A stretch of DNA of 6,135 bases. Source: a virus. Shown piece after piece: positions 1-6,135 of this stretch (the first letter of the stretch is position 1; the number at the start of each line of letters is the position of its first letter). The position numbers and the translations under genes were made by a program. The stretch is from positions 1 to 6,135 of the IMG/VR virus record IMGVR_UViG_3300030397_000117. One strand, written 5' to 3'. Below the pieces are notes generated by a model. That model searched no databases. It was given only the letters and a program-made list of their open reading frames with translations, and was not told the DNA's origin.

Positions 1-123
1 TTTGCTTTCATTGTTAGCTATTTCCATATTGTACCACGCTGTATTTGCTGTTGCTTTTATCTGTGCTACTCTGTCGCTTAGACTTTCCCATTGATATTGT
101 TCGTCCAGTTGTTTAATTCTGTT
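1..123. repeat. Terminal direct repeat, copy A (identical to 6013-6135); circular-assembly overlap
   Basis: Base-by-base comparison: 1-123 (tttgctttcattgttagc...gtttaattctgtt) equals 6013-6135. Offset is 6,012 nt. Confidence 0.92.
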
Positions 124-789: not shown

Positions 790-794
790 TTTTT

Positions 795-865
795 CGCGTC
801 TTTTTTGGTTAAAAAAGCGGCACGCCCCTTGGTAGTAATGAATAGACGCGTACCGCCTTCGGTAC
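795..865 (-). other. Cluster of overlapping stem-loops in a GC-rich intergenic island (candidate ssDNA/RNA structural element)
   Basis: cgcgtc 795-800 pairs with gacgcg 845-850. T6 801-806 pairs with A6 811-816 (loop ggtt). gtaccg 850-855 pairs with cggtac 860-865 (loop cctt). Positions 817-900 have 48 G+C out of 84, while the flanks are AT-rich. Confidence 0.4.
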
Positions 866-895
866 TGCCTGGCTTTCAGACAGATCGCTTGCCGT

Positions 896-1213
896 CTATG
901 TACCGGCTTCGCCGCCCTCCTCTGCTGCCTTTGCGGCTTCTTCTTCTTGCTTTTTGATTTGATCGCTTCGTGCGATGATAGATTTCTCTATGCTTCCCAT
1001 CGCTTCTGCTGCGACTTCCCATTTGTCTGATCTTATGTTATATGCGGGAATTACGCCTTCTTTTCTTTCTGTGTAGATTAGTGGCGATTCACTTCCTATC
1101 GGTTCGTTATTAGTCATGGCTCGCATGATTCTTGTTTCTAACGGTTCTCCGATTACTATTGGTATTGATTTCATTTGGCTTTTCGCCATTTTGTTTTGTT
1201 TATACGATTTCAT
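896..1213 (-). CDS. Hypothetical protein, 105 aa; possibly an internal scaffolding (VP3-like) protein, function unconfirmed
   Basis: Track ORF on the coding strand, 14-nt overlap with the upstream ORF. The core PLIYTERKEGVIPAYNIRSDKWEVAAEAM resembles, from memory only, a motif in small conserved microvirus proteins. Acidic Ala/Glu-rich tail. An alternative start at M9 (1189) would remove the overlap. Confidence 0.6.
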   Translation of the reverse strand: MKSYKQNKMAKSQMKSIPIVIGEPLETRIMRAMTNNEPIGSESPLIYTERKEGVIPAYNIRSDKWEVAAEAMGSIEKSIIARSDQIKKQEEEAAKAAEEGGEAGT

Positions 1214-3826: not shown

Positions 3827-4117
3827 TTACAGATCGAAAGATGCTTCGATGTGTAGGCGTGTTGCTTTTTTCCTGATTTCTTCGAGTGTGTTGAAATCTT
3901 CTTCGGATATTAGTCCGGCCTTTTTGATTTGCATGTTGTTTTTTGCGAGTGCTTTAAGCGTGTAACTTACGCTTGTTGTTCTTTTCTTTGGCTTTACGAT
4001 CTCTGCTTGTACTTCGATCTCTGTTGCTGCCGGGATGTTTCTTTCTCCCTTTTCGATCTTCTCTTTTGTTACCGCGTTTGCGGCTTTGTTCTGTTTTTCC
4101 ATTTCTTTTGGTGACAT
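3827..4117 (-). CDS. Hypothetical protein, 96 aa, Lys-rich; first gene downstream of the main promoter
   Basis: Track ORF on the coding strand. The candidate promoter lies about 55 nt upstream of its ATG and a hairpin follows its stop. I recognise no motif. Confidence 0.55.
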   Translation of the reverse strand: MSPKEMEKQNKAANAVTKEKIEKGERNIPAATEIEVQAEIVKPKKRTTSVSYTLKALAKNNMQIKKAGLISEEDFNTLEEIRKKATRLHIEASFDL

Positions 4118-4172
4118 GATTTTAAGTTTTTGTTATATGTTTGCGGGGTCTTTCCCCTTTTTTGTTATTGCT

Positions 4173-4202
4173 AATATACGACATTTTGCACCCCTTTGTC
4201 AA
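4173..4202 (-). promoter_or_regulatory. Candidate main promoter (TTGACA-N18-TATATT)
   Basis: On the minus strand, -35 TTGACA is at 4202-4197, the spacer is 18 nt, and -10 TATATT is at 4178-4173. It sits in the largest non-coding region and faces ORF96a / ORF96b / VP1. The same bases also read CTTG-N21-TATATTAG, one mismatch from each part of the Bacteroides-type TTTG / TAnnTTTG promoter. Confidence 0.5.
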
Positions 4203-4225
4203 GTGTTTTCCTTACTTTAACATTT

Positions 4226-4253
4226 ATTTAACATATCTTAACTTATTAGCCTT
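4226..4253 (-). other. dif-like 28-mer (candidate XerC/XerD recombination site)
   Basis: Minus strand AAGGCTAATAA-GTTAAG-ATATGTTAAAT against E. coli dif GGTGCGCATAA-TGTATA-TTATGTTAAAT gives 18/28 identities: XerD arm 10/11, XerC arm 6/11 (the GC..ATAA core is kept), central region 2/6. A second XerD-arm-like copy AAATGTTAAAG (8/11) lies at 4215-4225. Confidence 0.3.
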
Positions 4254-4291
4254 GTGGAGCTTGCGACACATGGTGTATAAAACCTGCTATC

Positions 4292-4313
4292 AATTATCGT
4301 CGCTGTGCGACAC
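4292..4313. repeat. 22-nt perfect direct repeat, copy 1 (AATTATCGTCGCTGTGCGACAC) with internal hairpin GTCGC-TGT-GCGAC
   Basis: Identical to 4368-4389. A partial third copy, TGCGACAC, is at 4262-4269. Confidence 0.85.
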
Positions 4314-4316
4314 TAC

Positions 4317-4340
4317 TGCAAGCCGTTGTCCCGGCTTGTA
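4317..4340. other. Stem-loop between the 22-nt repeats
   Basis: caagccg 4319-4325 pairs with cggcttg 4332-4338 (7 bp, loop ttgtcc). A flanking t4317-a4340 pair is possible. Confidence 0.5.
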
Positions 4341-4341
4341 C

Positions 4342-4366
4342 GAAATGCGAGGAAATCAGCATTTCC
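4342..4366. other. Two mutually exclusive stem-loops between the 22-nt repeats
   Basis: gaaatgc 4342-4348 pairs with gcatttc 4359-4365 (7 bp, 10-nt loop). Alternatively ggaaat 4351-4356 pairs with atttcc 4361-4366 (6 bp, loop cagc). Confidence 0.45.
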
Positions 4367-4367
4367 G

Positions 4368-4389
4368 AATTATCGTCGCTGTGCGACAC
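4368..4389. repeat. 22-nt perfect direct repeat, copy 2; overlaps the last five codons and the stop of rep
   Basis: Identical to 4292-4313. On the minus strand it reads GTGTCGCACAGCGACGATAATT, which encodes ...VAQRR-stop of VP4. Confidence 0.85.
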
Positions 4390-5569
4390 CTTTGAAAGCA
4401 TTTTTTAATCTTAACTTTGGCAGGAATTTTCTCCCGCTGTTCTCTTTTGTTGGCGGTTCTTTGTATGCTTTTTGCTTAATTTCCCTGCCCTTAATTTCTT
4501 TGCTGTACGCTTCTTCTTTTTCTTTTTCCTTAGCGTACCTTTCCAGCCTTTTAACGTTTCTCCTGTTGTTTTCCCATAGTCTTTTTTCTATGTCGATTTT
4601 ATTATCCCCGTACCCCAGTGTTATATTTTTTTGCCTCATCTTTTTGAGCATGTTGTTATATTTGCTCTCATCTTCAGGCATTTTATATTTTATACCGTTT
4701 AGGTATTTTATACCTTTATCCATACTTTCTATCCATAATAACTCTTTTTCGTCTTCTGTGTATAGTTTGTTTCTGTAGTATGTTGGTAGCGGTAGCCTTA
4801 GCCCTTTTCTTGTTATGTATGTTTGATCCGTCCCTCCTTCCGGTTTAAATTTATTCCTTTTTGCGTCTTCTGTTTCGAGATACCCTTTTCCCATTCCTGG
4901 GCTTGTTAGCACTTTGCTTTTGTAATTTTTGTGTAGTTTATCAAGTTTACTAACGTATTTTACCACATAGTTAACCGTTCTTTCGTTTACGTACCCCTTT
5001 TTTCCTTTGCGTGTTTTTACTCCGTTTTCGTATTTTTCGTTACCTATTGTTATATGCCCGTATCCCCATCTTTCACTTATTACTTCTCCGCTTTCTTTCG
5101 TGAATATTATCCCGTGCATGTGTATGCGCTCTGTGTTCTTTTGCCCTAATTCTGTTACAAACCAGTGTTTTACGCTTTTGTCAAATTTTCTTCTCCATCT
5201 TTCGCAGAATCTTCTTACTGCTATTGTCGCTATTTCGTTTTCGAGGTTATACCCTGTTAAGTAGTTTGCCTCGTTTCTTCGCATTAGCCTGCTATTTCTC
5301 TTTGCGTCTTTTCTGATCGCTCTTTCTAATTTTATCAGTGATATATCACTGAAACTTAACGTTATGAATTTCCCTGTTGTGTCTGTTTTTATTTCTTCTG
5401 TTAGTCGTACTTGCCATTCCCTTGCTTTTTTCTTCCTGCATATCATACATCTATCGCAAGGTATTCCCGTTATTAACGTTCGTTGATCTTTTACCTTTGG
5501 TATAGCCCCTTCATTTTTCTTCGTCTTTTGGTATTTCTTATTGAGTTGATTTCGTTCGTGTAAGCACAT
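4370..5569 (-). CDS. VP4: Rolling-circle replication initiation protein (HUH endonuclease, microvirus VP4 / gpA family), 399 aa
   Basis: Motif I FITLSF (aa 68-73, nt 5351-5368). Motif II HMHGII (aa 150-155, nt 5105-5122). Motif III YVVKYVSK with two tyrosines three residues apart (aa 201-205, nt 4955-4969; compare phiX174 gpA YVAKYVNK). Cys cluster PCDRCMICRKKK near the N-terminus. An SPGMGKGYL motif is typical of microvirus VP4. Codon-to-motif positions were verified by hand. Confidence 0.93.
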   Translation of the reverse strand: MCLHERNQLNKKYQKTKKNEGAIPKVKDQRTLITGIPCDRCMICRKKKAREWQVRLTEEIKTDTTGKFITLSFSDISLIKLERAIRKDAKRNSRLMRRNEANYLTGYNLENEIATIAVRRFCERWRRKFDKSVKHWFVTELGQKNTERIHMHGIIFTKESGEVISERWGYGHITIGNEKYENGVKTRKGKKGYVNERTVNYVVKYVSKLDKLHKNYKSKVLTSPGMGKGYLETEDAKRNKFKPEGGTDQTYITRKGLRLPLPTYYRNKLYTEDEKELLWIESMDKGIKYLNGIKYKMPEDESKYNNMLKKMRQKNITLGYGDNKIDIEKRLWENNRRNVKRLERYAKEKEKEEAYSKEIKGREIKQKAYKEPPTKENSGRKFLPKLRLKNAFKGVAQRR

Positions 5570-5657
5570 TTTTACCTTTTTTCGGGAAAGAAACCTGACG
5601 CCTTTGTCATTAAAACGACAGGAACGCCATACTTGCTTTTCTTTCCGTCTTTAAATT

Positions 5658-5678
5658 GAGCGCGGCATAACCGCGCCC
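5658..5678 (-). terminator. GC-rich stem-loop 14 nt downstream of the VP2 stop (possible terminator or ssDNA structural element)
   Basis: On the minus strand GGGCGCGG-TTATG-CCGCGCTC forms 8 pairs including one G.U, with a core of 6 G-C pairs at 5660-5676. An A tract precedes it and TCAATTT follows it on the minus strand. The plus-strand side carries the strong T tract ccttttctttctttttt. Confidence 0.35.
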
Positions 5679-5691
5679 TTTTCTTTCTTTT

Positions 5692-6135
5692 TTATCTTTT
5701 CATATTTTGCCCTCTCATTTCTACGCCTGCTCCTATCGCTCTACTTAGTCCGTCAACTATTATCTTTTTTTCGTATAGTCCCAATCTTGCTTTTTCGAGT
5801 TCTGCCCATACTTTGGCCTCAAATTCGTTTATCGCGTTTGCGTGCTTTTTTGTTCCTATGTCGTCTATTGTTAGGCTTAGTCTTTCCCATTCCTGCGTTA
5901 ACCTTACCCCGATTTCTCTTGTTTGTTCGCTTATCTGTTTACTTTTTAAGGTTTGGTTAATTAGTTCCCTTCCTAATAGTGCTATTTTTGTTTGCAATGT
6001 TCTTTCACTTAATTTGCTTTCATTGTTAGCTATTTCCATATTGTACCACGCTGTATTTGCTGTTGCTTTTATCTGTGCTACTCTGTCGCTTAGACTTTCC
6101 CATTGATATTGTTCGTCCAGTTGTTTAATTCTGTT
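5692..6135 (-). CDS. VP2: VP2-like minor capsid / pilot protein, C-terminal part (same gene as 1-651; 6013-6135 duplicates 1-123)
   Basis: The track ORF 5692-6039 is open upstream to the window edge in the same frame. 6135-6039 is 96 nt (32 codons) and the unit length 6,012 is divisible by 3, so the frame is continuous with 651->1. Confidence 0.8.
   Translation of the reverse strand, partial: NRIKQLDEQYQWESLSDRVAQIKATANTAWYNMEIANNESKLSERTLQTKIALLGRELINQTLKSKQISEQTREIGVRLTQEWERLSLTIDDIGTKKHANAINEFEAKVWAELEKARLGLYEKKIIVDGLSRAIGAGVEMRGQNMKR
6013..6135. repeat. Terminal direct repeat, copy B (identical to 1-123)
   Basis: See copy A. Confidence 0.92.

What the first reader, a model, noticed from the sequence alone, without database searches (positions are those of the whole stretch)
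4262..4389. Perfect 22-nt hairpin-containing direct repeats bracket two stem-loops just after rep: candidate replication origin or Rep iterons
AATTATCGTCGCTGTGCGACAC occurs twice without mismatch, at 4292-4313 and 4368-4389 (76-nt period, 54-nt spacer). Each copy carries the hairpin GTCGC-TGT-GCGAC, and a third partial copy TGCGACAC lies at 4262-4269. Copy 2 overlaps the final codons and stop of rep. The spacer is almost entirely self-complementary (stems at 4319-4338 and 4342-4366, the latter with two competing folds). A 6-kb genome under strong size constraint should not keep a perfect 22-mer twice by chance. Outside phiX-like phages the plus-strand origin of microviruses is poorly defined, and iterons plus hairpins next to rep are the usual architecture of rolling-circle origins. 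Two functional nick sites in direct orientation would tend to delete the 76 nt between them, so the repeats are more likely binding sites than duplicated nick sites. Alternatively they are a recent duplication of the rep 3' end: a 22-codon ORF at 4294-4362 ends in the same VAQRR-stop.
Basis: partly seen in the sequence, partly recalled or inferred. Interest (0 to 1): 0.7.

Follow-up and report, generated by a model that had tools for sequence, protein, structure and literature searches.

The report
Duplicated hairpin after microvirus rep gene
The perfect 22-base repeat is real, but it is private to this one phage genome and most likely forms the base of a branched stem-loop that ends the replication-gene transcript; a far better replication-origin candidate lies elsewhere in the genome.

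Summary
AATTATCGTCGCTGTGCGACAC occurs exactly twice (4292-4313, 4368-4389), which none of 200 shuffles reproduced, and the 54-nt spacer folds into two strong hairpins (z -4.8). The window is a circular 6012-nt Alpavirinae-like microvirus with all genes on the minus strand.

The origin/iteron reading is not supported.
- The genome is a singleton: nearest Rep 54% identical, nearest capsid 61%.
- None of about 95 relatives carries the 22-mer.
- Repeats straddling the rep stop are no commoner in relatives than at random positions.
- A 70-nt non-coding element elsewhere (window 790-858) is nearly invariant in 82 of 94 relatives. It is the better origin candidate.

In single-stranded form the two copies pair with each other (probability about 0.9, against 0.05 for local hairpins). 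This gives a T-shaped structure (4404-4279), the most stable fold in the genome. It is followed by a T-run and lies upstream of a Bacteroidetes-type promoter. Relatives carry terminator-like hairpins at this position 5.7 times more often than elsewhere.

Best reading: a private duplication of a hairpin, forming this phage's version of the rep-end terminator or structural block. Function is inferred, not shown. Interest is low to moderate.

The parts
4368..4389 (-). Repeat copy A. In viral sense it reads GTGTCGCACAGCGACGATAATT. It overlaps the last six rep codons and the TAA stop (4370-4372).
4292..4313 (-). Repeat copy B, identical to copy A and non-coding.
4342..4365 (-). Spacer hairpin 1: GAAATGC.GA / TC.GCATTTC, with the competing fold GGAAAT-GCTG-ATTTCC.
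   Evidence: z -3.5
4319..4338 (-). Spacer hairpin 2: CAAGCCG-GGACAA-CGGCTTG.
   Evidence: z -4.2, 0 of 200 shuffles
4279..4404 (-). The whole predicted T-shaped (three-way) single-strand structure. The basal stem pairs 4404-4392 with 4293-4279. Copy A pairs with copy B through the palindromic cores, and the two hairpins sit at the tip. It is the most stable 120-nt single-stranded DNA fold in the genome.
   Evidence: The flank contribution is only marginal.
4277..4282 (-). T-run (TTTTAT in viral or mRNA sense), 2 nt after the basal stem.
   Evidence: Read directly. Positional analogy with terminator-like sites in relatives.
4262..4269 (-). Third partial copy (GTGTCGCA). Probably a chance match.
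4216..4232 (-). Motif M1, GTTAAATAAATGTTAAA. It is conserved in a subset of relatives, always on the rep-sense strand and always -9 to +137 nt from the rep stop.
4171..4203 (-). Promoter-like site for the downstream genes. It reads CTTG-21 nt-TATATTAG (Bacteroidetes type) or equally TTGACA-18 nt-TATATT (sigma-70 type).
   Evidence: 11 of 12; 8 of 10, among the top 4 of 6012 positions; relatives
4370..5569 (-). rep gene (HUH rolling-circle initiator, 399 aa), with a 7-residue C-terminal extension that reads into copy A.
790..858 (-). CE1, the window's diverged copy of a family-wide conserved non-coding element. It is not part of the repeat structure. It is listed because it competes with the repeat for the origin role.

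Best explanation
The two 22-mers are a private duplication, probably recent, of a small hairpin-bearing segment (inferred). That segment originally lay just past the ancestral rep stop.

Each copy has a near-palindromic core (GTCGC-ACA-GCGAC). In a single strand of viral or mRNA sense, the 5' half of one copy therefore pairs with the 3' half of the other. Together with the two spacer hairpins this gives a branched, T-shaped stem-loop of about 125 nt (predicted).

The structure occupies the slot between the rep stop and the next promoter. In relatives this slot holds hairpins, often with T-runs. I therefore take it to be this phage's version of the end-of-transcript terminator or 3'-end stabiliser. 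The same fold would also form in packaged single-stranded DNA, where it could serve as an entry site for complementary-strand priming. Both functions are inferred.

The repeats are not the plus-strand origin and are not Rep iterons.
For: Structure:
- The region holds the most stable 120-nt single-stranded DNA windows of the genome (-23.4 kcal/mol against a genome mean of -8.2, sd 3.6).
- Folds of 146 nt give z -3.5 as DNA and z -3.1 as RNA.
- Copy-to-copy pairing has probability 0.86-0.99, against 0.006-0.08 for the local hairpins, on either strand and with either parameter set.
- The spacer hairpins give z -4.8.

Position:
- TTTTAT follows the basal stem by 2 nt.
- A promoter-like site lies about 75 nt further downstream.

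Family context:
- Perfect GC-containing hairpins are 2.7 times denser within 40 nt of the rep stop than elsewhere.
- Hairpin-plus-T-run sites are 5.7 times denser there, and 17 of 76 loci have one.
- The neighbourhood of the rep stop is the most stable window of the genome in 11 of 67 relatives, including L094 (a close capsid relative) and L001 and L004.
- L025 and L079 keep a 46-nt hairpin at this position through a compensatory G-C to C-G change.
- L029 and L033 share CGCGC-CCA-GCGCG-ATAA at the rep end in two different reading frames, so it is a DNA or RNA element and not a peptide.

Non-coding origin of copy A:
- Homologous Rep C-termini end at DAF-stop. Here the protein continues KGVAQRR-stop.
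Against: - No function has been tested.
- The simple terminator scan finds nothing on this strand. The fold is branched, its basal stem is AT-rich, and the T-run has only four T's.
- Structure alone needs only the 13-nt core. It does not explain why all 22 nt are identical.
- Complementarity of the flanks beyond the repeat is only marginal: 16 of 500 shuffled flanks and 32 of 500 random genomic flanks do as well.
- Strong structure at this position is common in relatives but not universal (median z -1.7).
- With no close relatives, neither conservation nor covariation of this particular structure can be assessed.
Confidence: 0.4

Rival explanations
1. The repeat is a neutral, recent duplication with no function. 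A replication or recombination accident copied 22 nt to the far side of two pre-existing hairpins. The perfect identity then reflects youth rather than selection.
For: - The feature is private to a singleton genome.
- The match is perfect, with no significant diverged extension (plus my estimate).
- Recombination between the copies would leave Rep unchanged, so the extra unit costs nothing in protein terms.
- The intergenic region after rep varies from about 40 to 450 nt among relatives, so the size constraint here is loose.
Against: - It is not a simple tandem duplication. Only 22 of the 76 nt recur, and Tandem Repeats Finder reports nothing.
- Direct repeats in a rolling-circle single-stranded DNA genome are prone to deletion, so persistence in the assembled consensus suggests that the duplication is at least tolerated.
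- The duplication creates the most stable fold in the genome.
Confidence: 0.25
2. The branched fold in the packaged strand is the complementary-strand (minus) origin. Host primase, RNA polymerase or a PriA-type primosome would start conversion of single-stranded to double-stranded DNA there. Precedents are the phiX174 F-G hairpin, the G4 origin and the plasmid single-strand origin ssoA.
For: - It is the most stable single-stranded DNA structure in the genome and lies on the packaged strand.
- Such origins are structure-defined and vary in sequence between lineages. That matches hairpin-rich but unrelated intergenic regions after rep in L092, L094, L004 and L024.
- Published work treats intergenic hairpins as candidates for this role in other microviruses (PMC9865509).
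Against: - Two other intergenic regions are also strongly structured (793-957 and 5563-5697).
- The first of these adjoins the conserved CE1 element and is an equally good candidate.
- No motif of a known single-strand origin is present.
- In many relatives the hairpin here looks like a plain terminator.
Confidence: 0.17
3. The 22-mers would be Rep-binding iterons, or the plus-strand origin region, next to rep. Precedents are the iterons of geminiviruses and circoviruses and the direct repeats of the pMV158 origin.
For: - The repeat is a perfect 22-mer with a palindromic core, immediately 3' of rep.
- The sequence G-ATA inside each copy, and TTGATA at the junction after copy B, recall from memory the CTTG/ATA nick site of phiX174 and pC194. 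This is a lead only.
- One other lineage (L016, L027, L028) keeps AGAGGAACG both 25 nt before and 30 nt after the rep stop.
Against: - The repeat is absent from every relative that has a homologous Rep catalytic core.
- Repeats across the rep stop are not enriched: at 9 nt or longer, 10.7% of loci against 8.7% of control positions.
- The family-wide invariant non-coding element is CE1, which lies elsewhere.
- Two identical nick sites in direct orientation would delete the 76 nt between them.
- To my knowledge, phiX-type Reps with two catalytic tyrosines are not known to use iterons.
Confidence: 0.1
4. Each repeat unit is a weak promoter with an operator palindrome in its spacer. A regulator would bind GTCGC-N3-GCGAC at both copies.
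For: - Copy A reads TTCAAA-16 nt-GATAAT (9 of 12).
- Both copies score 7 of 10 for the Bacteroidetes pattern TTTG-N19-22-TAnnTTTG, which puts them among the top 29 of 6012 positions.
- The palindrome sits in the promoter spacer.
Against: - The matches are weak.
- No regulator is recognisable among the small ORFs.
- A much better promoter lies downstream at 4203-4171.
- Nothing comparable is seen in relatives.
Confidence: 0.04
5. The repeat is an artefact of assembly or amplification.
For: The contig is a singleton and the reads are not available.
Against: - The 123-nt terminal overlap implies assembly words longer than the 98 nt that span both copies.
- The rep ORF is intact.
- The unit is not a simple tandem repeat.
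Confidence: 0.03

Closest known systems
phiX174 intergenic hairpins (the transcript terminators and stabilisers after genes J, F, G and H, and the PriA/n' primosome assembly site in the F-G region)
   Same: - Both are stable hairpins confined to the few non-coding gaps of a microvirus genome.
- Both lie on the packaged, mRNA-sense strand.
- Both are placed after a gene and before the next promoter.
   Different: - The structure here is branched, with three helices.
- It is built from a perfect 22-nt direct repeat.
- The host is probably a member of the Bacteroidales, and no function has been tested.
Single-strand origins of rolling-circle replicons (G4 complementary-strand origin, M13 minus origin, plasmid ssoA)
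   Same: - Both are large imperfect folds of about 100-150 nt in non-coding DNA.
- They are strand-specific, variable in sequence between lineages, and lie close to rep.
   Different: - No conserved single-strand-origin motif (such as RSB or CS-6 of ssoA) is present.
- Priming has not been tested.
- Another structured region next to CE1 competes for this role.
T-shaped terminal hairpin of adeno-associated virus (A-B-B'-C-C'-A')
   Same: The topology matches: a long stem capped by two small hairpins, in a single-stranded DNA virus that encodes an HUH Rep.
   Different: - The genome here is circular, so there is no terminal resolution.
- The stem is interrupted and short.
- No Rep-binding repeat (GAGC)n is present.
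- The resemblance is in shape only.
Iteron-plus-stem-loop origins (geminiviruses, circoviruses, nanoviruses; the pMV158 double-strand origin)
   Same: Both have direct repeats and hairpins adjacent to rep.
   Different: - There is no conserved nick motif in a loop.
- The repeats are not conserved or paralleled in relatives.
- The two copies are identical and each contains a hairpin.
- Rep here is of the phiX type, with two tyrosines.
dif-like XerCD attachment sites of Alpavirinae and enterogokushovirus prophages (PMC3091885, PMC7062461)
   Same: They occupy the same intergenic region. In the Dysgonomonas prophages the attachment site lies just downstream of rep.
   Different: Neither the 22-mer nor any other site in the window matches the 11-6-11 dif pattern above background (best 18 of 28).

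Membership tests
Rolling-circle plus-strand origin / Rep iterons | The sequence recognised by Rep is conserved, or visibly co-varies, among replicons with homologous Rep. | tested here: not met
   The 22-mer is absent from about 95 relatives and from all collections searched. The conserved non-coding elements are CE1 and M1 instead.
Rolling-circle plus-strand origin / Rep iterons | Repeats flanking or adjoining the rep end recur across the family. | tested here: not met
   Repeats of 9 nt or longer straddling the rep stop occur in 10.7% of 75 loci, against 8.7% of random positions.
Rolling-circle plus-strand origin / Rep iterons | One functional nick site per genome unit. | tested here: inconclusive
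   There are two identical copies in direct orientation. This is incompatible with both being nick sites but compatible with both being binding sites.
Rolling-circle plus-strand origin / Rep iterons | Rep binds or cleaves the site. | not testable with these tools
   This needs purified Rep and oligonucleotides.
Intrinsic transcription terminator | A stable stem-loop on the sense strand just past a stop codon, followed by a T/U-run. | tested here: inconclusive
   A stable fold is followed by GG-TTTTAT. However, the fold is branched and its base is AT-rich, and the simple scan finds nothing on this strand.
Intrinsic transcription terminator | It sits at the end of a transcription unit, upstream of the next promoter, as in relatives. 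| tested here: met
   A promoter-like site lies at 4203-4171. Terminator-like sites are 5.7 times enriched near the rep stop in 76 relatives.
Single-strand (complementary-strand) origin | An extensive imperfect palindrome in non-coding DNA of the packaged strand. | tested here: met
   It is the most stable single-stranded DNA window of the genome (z -3.5).
Single-strand (complementary-strand) origin | Primer synthesis starts there, and the function depends on orientation. | not testable with these tools
   This needs conversion of single-stranded to double-stranded DNA in extract, or deletion mutants.
XerCD dif-like attachment site | A 28-bp site of two 11-bp arms and a 6-bp spacer that resembles the host dif. 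| tested here: not met
   The best match to attachment sites of Bacteroidales prophages or to E. coli dif is 18 of 28, which is at background level.
Mini-CRISPR array | The repeat is identical or near-identical to a host CRISPR repeat, and the spacer is unstructured. | tested here: not met
   The repeat has no match in genomes of 185,579 species. The spacer is almost wholly self-complementary.
Simple tandem duplication | The whole period is repeated head to tail. | tested here: not met
   Only 22 of the 76 nt recur, and Tandem Repeats Finder reports nothing.
Known RNA family or tRNA-like element | A match to a curated covariance model or to a tRNA model. | tested here: not met
   There is no Rfam match at E of 1 or below and no ARAGORN hit.

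The most novel reading that the evidence does not exclude
The T-shaped fold built from the two 22-mers could be a true replication element. It might be a Rep-loading or priming structure in which Rep, or a host factor, recognises the duplicated GTCGC-ACA-GCGAC-GATAATT unit in folded single-stranded DNA. That would be a circular-genome analogue of the parvovirus T-hairpin, evolved privately in one microvirus lineage.
Probability: 0.08. Interest if true: 0.7.

Novelty: new member of a known kind. Interest (0 to 1): 0.28.

Why it matters
As it stands, the repeat is a lineage-private elaboration of the hairpin block that microviruses keep in their few non-coding gaps. It says little about how these phages replicate.

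Its main value is indirect. Checking it against about 95 relatives showed that the region after rep is built as hairpin(s), then an AT-rich motif, then a promoter. It also exposed a near-invariant 70-nt non-coding element upstream of the pilot-protein gene. That element is a concrete, testable candidate for the still undescribed origin of Bacteroidales-infecting (Alpavirinae-like) microviruses.

If the repeat did prove to bind Rep, it would be the first iteron-type origin in the Microviridae.

Tried and rejected
- **Close relatives for a conservation or covariation test.** None exist. Rep reaches at most 54% identity among 5.8 billion proteins and the capsid at most 61%. Peptide-pattern scans of viral and metagenome contigs found nothing. 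The phage GenBank collection gave only an 80-nt capsid match.
- **Exact searches for the 22-mer** in viral, genome and metagenome collections: 0 hits.
- **Exact searches for the two spacer hairpins**, as a possible mobile cassette: 0 hits.
- **CRISPR mini-array**: rejected (the spacer is self-complementary).
- **dif/XerCD site**: I first thought ATATGTTAAAT at 4236-4226 resembled the XerD arm of dif. Scoring against real attachment sites of Bacteroidales prophages gave only background values, and the flanking bases are not conserved in relatives.
- **The 32-nt extended repeat and the third 8-nt copy**: both are within chance (and my estimate).
- **Flank complementarity as independent proof of the long stem**: only marginal. 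My first rough estimate of 1e-3 was too optimistic.
- **Small basic ORF in the gap** (4202-4122): it starts upstream of the likely transcription start and has no family match. It is probably spurious.
- **Rfam, tRNA and tandem-repeat scans**: all negative.
- **Literature searches** for an Alpavirinae or non-phiX microvirus origin: nothing found.

Full report
**What the window is.** Bases 1-123 repeat at 6013-6135, so this is a circular genome of 6012 nt. All long ORFs lie on the minus strand.
- The 667-aa product of 3432-1429 is a microvirus major capsid protein (PF02305).
- The 399-aa product of 5569-4370 is a rolling-circle initiator (PF23343, phrog_942). It has the HUH motif (ERIHMHG) and a Y-x3-Y pair.
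- Relatives occur as prophages in Dysgonomonas, Bacteroides, Paludibacteraceae and Aphodosoma, flanked by dif-like direct repeats. This matches what has been described for Alpavirinae (PMC3091885).

The packaged, mRNA-sense strand is therefore the reverse complement of the window, and the finding must be read in that sense: rep stop, then a 252-nt gap (4369-4118), then the next ORF.

**The observation.** It is correct in nearly every detail.
- The 22-mer occurs exactly twice, and no shuffle reproduced this.
- Copy A (4389-4368) supplies the codons VAQRR and the stop of rep. Copy B (4313-4292) is non-coding.
- The 54-nt spacer folds into two hairpins, z -4.84.
- The 22-codon ORF ending in VAQRR exists.

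Two embellishments do not hold.
- The 32-nt, 88% extension adds 6 of 10 matches on one side only, which is within chance.
- The third copy, TGCGACAC, is one of two 8-mer matches in the genome where 2.1 are expected.

**Anatomy in single-stranded form.** The core GTCGC-ACA-GCGAC is nearly its own reverse complement. The two direct copies can therefore pair with each other.
- With DNA or RNA parameters, on either strand, copy-to-copy pairing has probability 0.86-0.99. The local 5-bp hairpins have 0.006-0.08.
- The result is a T-shaped structure from 4404 to 4279. It has an interrupted basal stem, the two repeat cores facing each other across a 3x3 internal loop, and the two spacer hairpins at the tip.
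- It is the most stable 120-nt single-stranded DNA fold of the genome: -23.4 kcal/mol against a mean of -8.2, sd 3.6.
- The complementarity of the flanks beyond the repeats (AAAATGCT.TCAA with TTGA.AGCA..TTTT) adds -5 kcal/mol. This is matched by 3% of shuffled flanks and 6% of random genomic flanks, so it is only weak independent support.
- Pairing needs only the 13-nt core. The identity of the other 9 nt points to a copying event or to sequence-specific recognition.

**Can conservation be tested?** It cannot be tested in close relatives, because there are none.
- The best Rep match among 5.8 billion proteins is 54% identical, and the best capsid match is 61%.
- Pattern scans of viral and metagenome contigs find nothing closer.
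- The 22-mer and both spacer hairpins have no exact match anywhere.

I therefore compared architecture across about 95 loci with Rep identity of 35-54%.

**What relatives show.**
1. No relative has the repeat. Long repeats across the rep stop occur only here and, at 9-12 nt, in the L016/L027/L028 lineage. Their frequency equals that at random positions.
2. Hairpins are enriched at the rep stop by a factor of 2.7. Hairpins followed by a T-run are enriched by a factor of 5.7 and are found in 17 of 76 loci, for example L001, L010, L012, L037 and L088.
3. The neighbourhood of the rep stop is the most stable window of the genome in 11 of 67 relatives and among the top five in 18.
   - L094, a close capsid relative, has its most stable window there.
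   - L092 and L094 both have 330-400 nt of stacked hairpins in this region.
4. Sequences differ between lineages, but L025 and L079 keep one hairpin through a compensatory change. L029 and L033 keep CGCGC-CCA-GCGCG-ATAA at the rep end in two different reading frames. That element is a close analogue of GTCGC-ACA-GCGAC-GATAA in the window.
5. Downstream of the hairpins comes a promoter of the Bacteroidetes type (TTTG ... TAnnTTTG) in many relatives. In the window this is CTTG-21 nt-TATATTAG, which also reads as TTGACA-18 nt-TATATT.
6. Rep C-termini homologous to this one (LPKxxxK[D/N]AF) stop right after F in L001 and L004. Here the stop is lost and translation runs seven codons into copy A. 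Copy A is therefore a non-coding element that rep has extended into.

**Where the origin more probably is.** A k-mer survey revealed a non-coding element that I call CE1.
- In viral sense it reads GGTACGCAT-N-T-N-TTCTTATATATCAAG ... CGCTTT(T)AAAAAAGCGCGAAAA.
- It lies upstream of the pilot-protein gene and is present in 82 of 94 loci, including the prophages.
- A strict 27-nt pattern finds 68 IMG/VR contigs. All but one (2.5 kb, cut at the match) are 3.8-10 kb; genome-size contigs carry one copy, and the few with two are longer than one genome or repeat it at both ends.
- Its blocks are nearly invariant, although the proteins of these genomes are only about 45-60% identical.
- The small 3' palindrome shows compensatory changes in L046 and L067.
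- It matches no Rfam family.
- The window has a diverged copy at 858-790.

A second motif, M1 (GTTAAATAAATGTTAAA), occurs with at most one mismatch in 15 loci (14 relatives and the window). It is always on the rep-sense strand and always -9 to +137 nt from the rep stop. In the window it lies at 4232-4216.

An element recognised by the conserved catalytic core of Rep should look like CE1, or perhaps M1, and not like a sequence private to one genome. This is inference: no nicking has been tested. My recollection that TTCTTAT and CTTGATA resemble the nick regions of pC194 and phiX174 is only a lead.

**Mechanism I commit to.** An ancestral small hairpin lay just after the rep stop. A copying event placed a second, identical 22 nt on the far side of two further hairpins. 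The four elements now fold into one branched stem-loop, followed by GG-TTTTAT.
- In mRNA it would end or stabilise the long transcript that finishes with rep, just upstream of M1 and the promoter that restarts transcription on the circle.
- In packaged DNA the same fold is the most prominent double-stranded feature. It may also attract the priming machinery.

What is shown: the sequence, the predicted fold and its rank in the genome, the positional parallels in relatives, and the absence of conservation. What is inferred: the duplication history, and the roles in termination and priming.

My confidences are as follows.

| Reading | Confidence |
|---|---|
| Structural signal at the end of the rep transcript | about 0.4 |
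| Functionless young duplication | about 0.25 |
| Complementary-strand origin as the main role | about 0.17 |
| Rep iterons or plus-strand origin | about 0.1 |
| Promoter/operator pair | about 0.04 |
| Artefact | about 0.03 |

**Comparison with known systems.** The structure works most like the intergenic hairpins of phiX174 (terminators and the primosome site) and the single-strand origins of rolling-circle replicons. In shape it recalls the T-hairpin of adeno-associated virus. It fails the testable criteria for each of the following:
- an iteron-type origin;
- a dif-like attachment site;
- a CRISPR mini-array;
- a simple tandem duplication;
- any curated RNA family.

**Verdict.** The repeat is real, non-random and private to this genome. 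Most probably it is an ordinary structural element of an intergenic region in an unusual, duplicated form. It is a new member of a known kind, of low to moderate interest.

Noticed in passing
window 790-858 (minus strand); e.g. L096 3039-3110, L025 about 1968-2040: CE1 is a near-invariant non-coding element just upstream of the pilot-protein (VP2) gene. Its consensus is GGTACGCAT.T.TTCTTATATATCAAG...CGCTTTTAAAAAAGCGCGAAAA. It occurs in 82 of 94 related loci, including Bacteroidales prophages. A strict 27-nt pattern finds 68 IMG/VR contigs, nearly all of microvirus size, with one copy in genome-size contigs. It is far more conserved than the proteins and is not in Rfam. It is the best candidate for the undescribed origin, or another essential cis element, of Alpavirinae-like microviruses. 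The window's copy is diverged.
   Followed up: partly
window 4216-4232 (minus strand): Motif M1 (GTTAAATAAATGTTAAA, two 7-nt direct half-sites 10 nt apart) is shared, with at most one mismatch, by the window and 14 relatives. It is always on the rep-sense strand and always -9 to +137 nt from the rep stop, and in some relatives it overlaps the stop codon. Its function is unknown. It could be an origin, an operator or an upstream promoter element. It is not convincingly dif-like.
   Followed up: partly
window 4370-4393 (rep 3' end): Rep has the longest C-terminal tail in its family. Relatives with the homologous ending LPKxxxK(D/N)AF stop right after F (L001, L004). Here TTT-TAA has become TTC-AAA, and seven extra codons (KGVAQRR) are read from the repeat.
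   Followed up: yes
L087 3201-3220 and 9258-9277; L086 2669 and 8671; L091 3171 and 9151: Integrated relatives in Dysgonomonas and Aphodosoma are flanked by dif-like direct repeats, e.g. AATGGTAATTATATAACAAA around a 6057-nt prophage. The phage-side site lies downstream of rep. A conserved motif of another clade (CATAGTATAAATTATAGGACAAA, e.g. in L035, L047 and L053) matches this attachment site at 18 of 24 positions. It is probably the XerCD attachment site of that clade. The window has no such site.
   Followed up: partly
L016, L027, L028, around the rep stop (-25 and +30 nt): AGAGGAACG occurs both inside the last rep codons and about 55 nt downstream in three related genomes whose surrounding bases differ. 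ATGCCTATAA / ATGCCTTATAA is also tandem across the stop. This is the only other lineage with a repeat straddling the rep stop.
   Followed up: partly
L009 about 2490-2560, L015 about 4035-4100, L064 about 1755-1820: Three relatives share a structured element after rep: CCCGC..TTTCGCGC.CGCTCA ... AAGCGGGA.GAAGCAC.CGCG. It has two interleaved complementary pairs, so it may form a pseudoknot.
   Followed up: no
L040 about 4030-4060, L062 4014-4045: The CE1 5' block (A/G)GTACGCAT also occurs directly upstream of M1 in these two relatives (GTACGCATGAAATAGTTAAATAAATGTTAAA). This hints that the two motifs may be bound by the same factor.
   Followed up: no
window 4122-4202 (minus strand): A small basic ORF lies in the gap (TTG start, 26 aa; or ATG at 4184, MSYISNNKKGERPRKHITKT). 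It overlaps the promoter-like site and has no family match, so it is probably spurious.
   Followed up: partly
window 793-957 and 5563-5697: These are the two other strongly structured non-coding stretches of the genome (-21.3 and -18.9 kcal/mol per 120 nt). The first adjoins CE1. In many relatives a G-rich/C-rich hairpin with a T-rich tail sits just upstream of CE1.
   Followed up: no
window 1-123 = 6013-6135: There is a 123-nt terminal redundancy, which shows that the contig is a complete circular genome of 6012 nt.
   Followed up: yes
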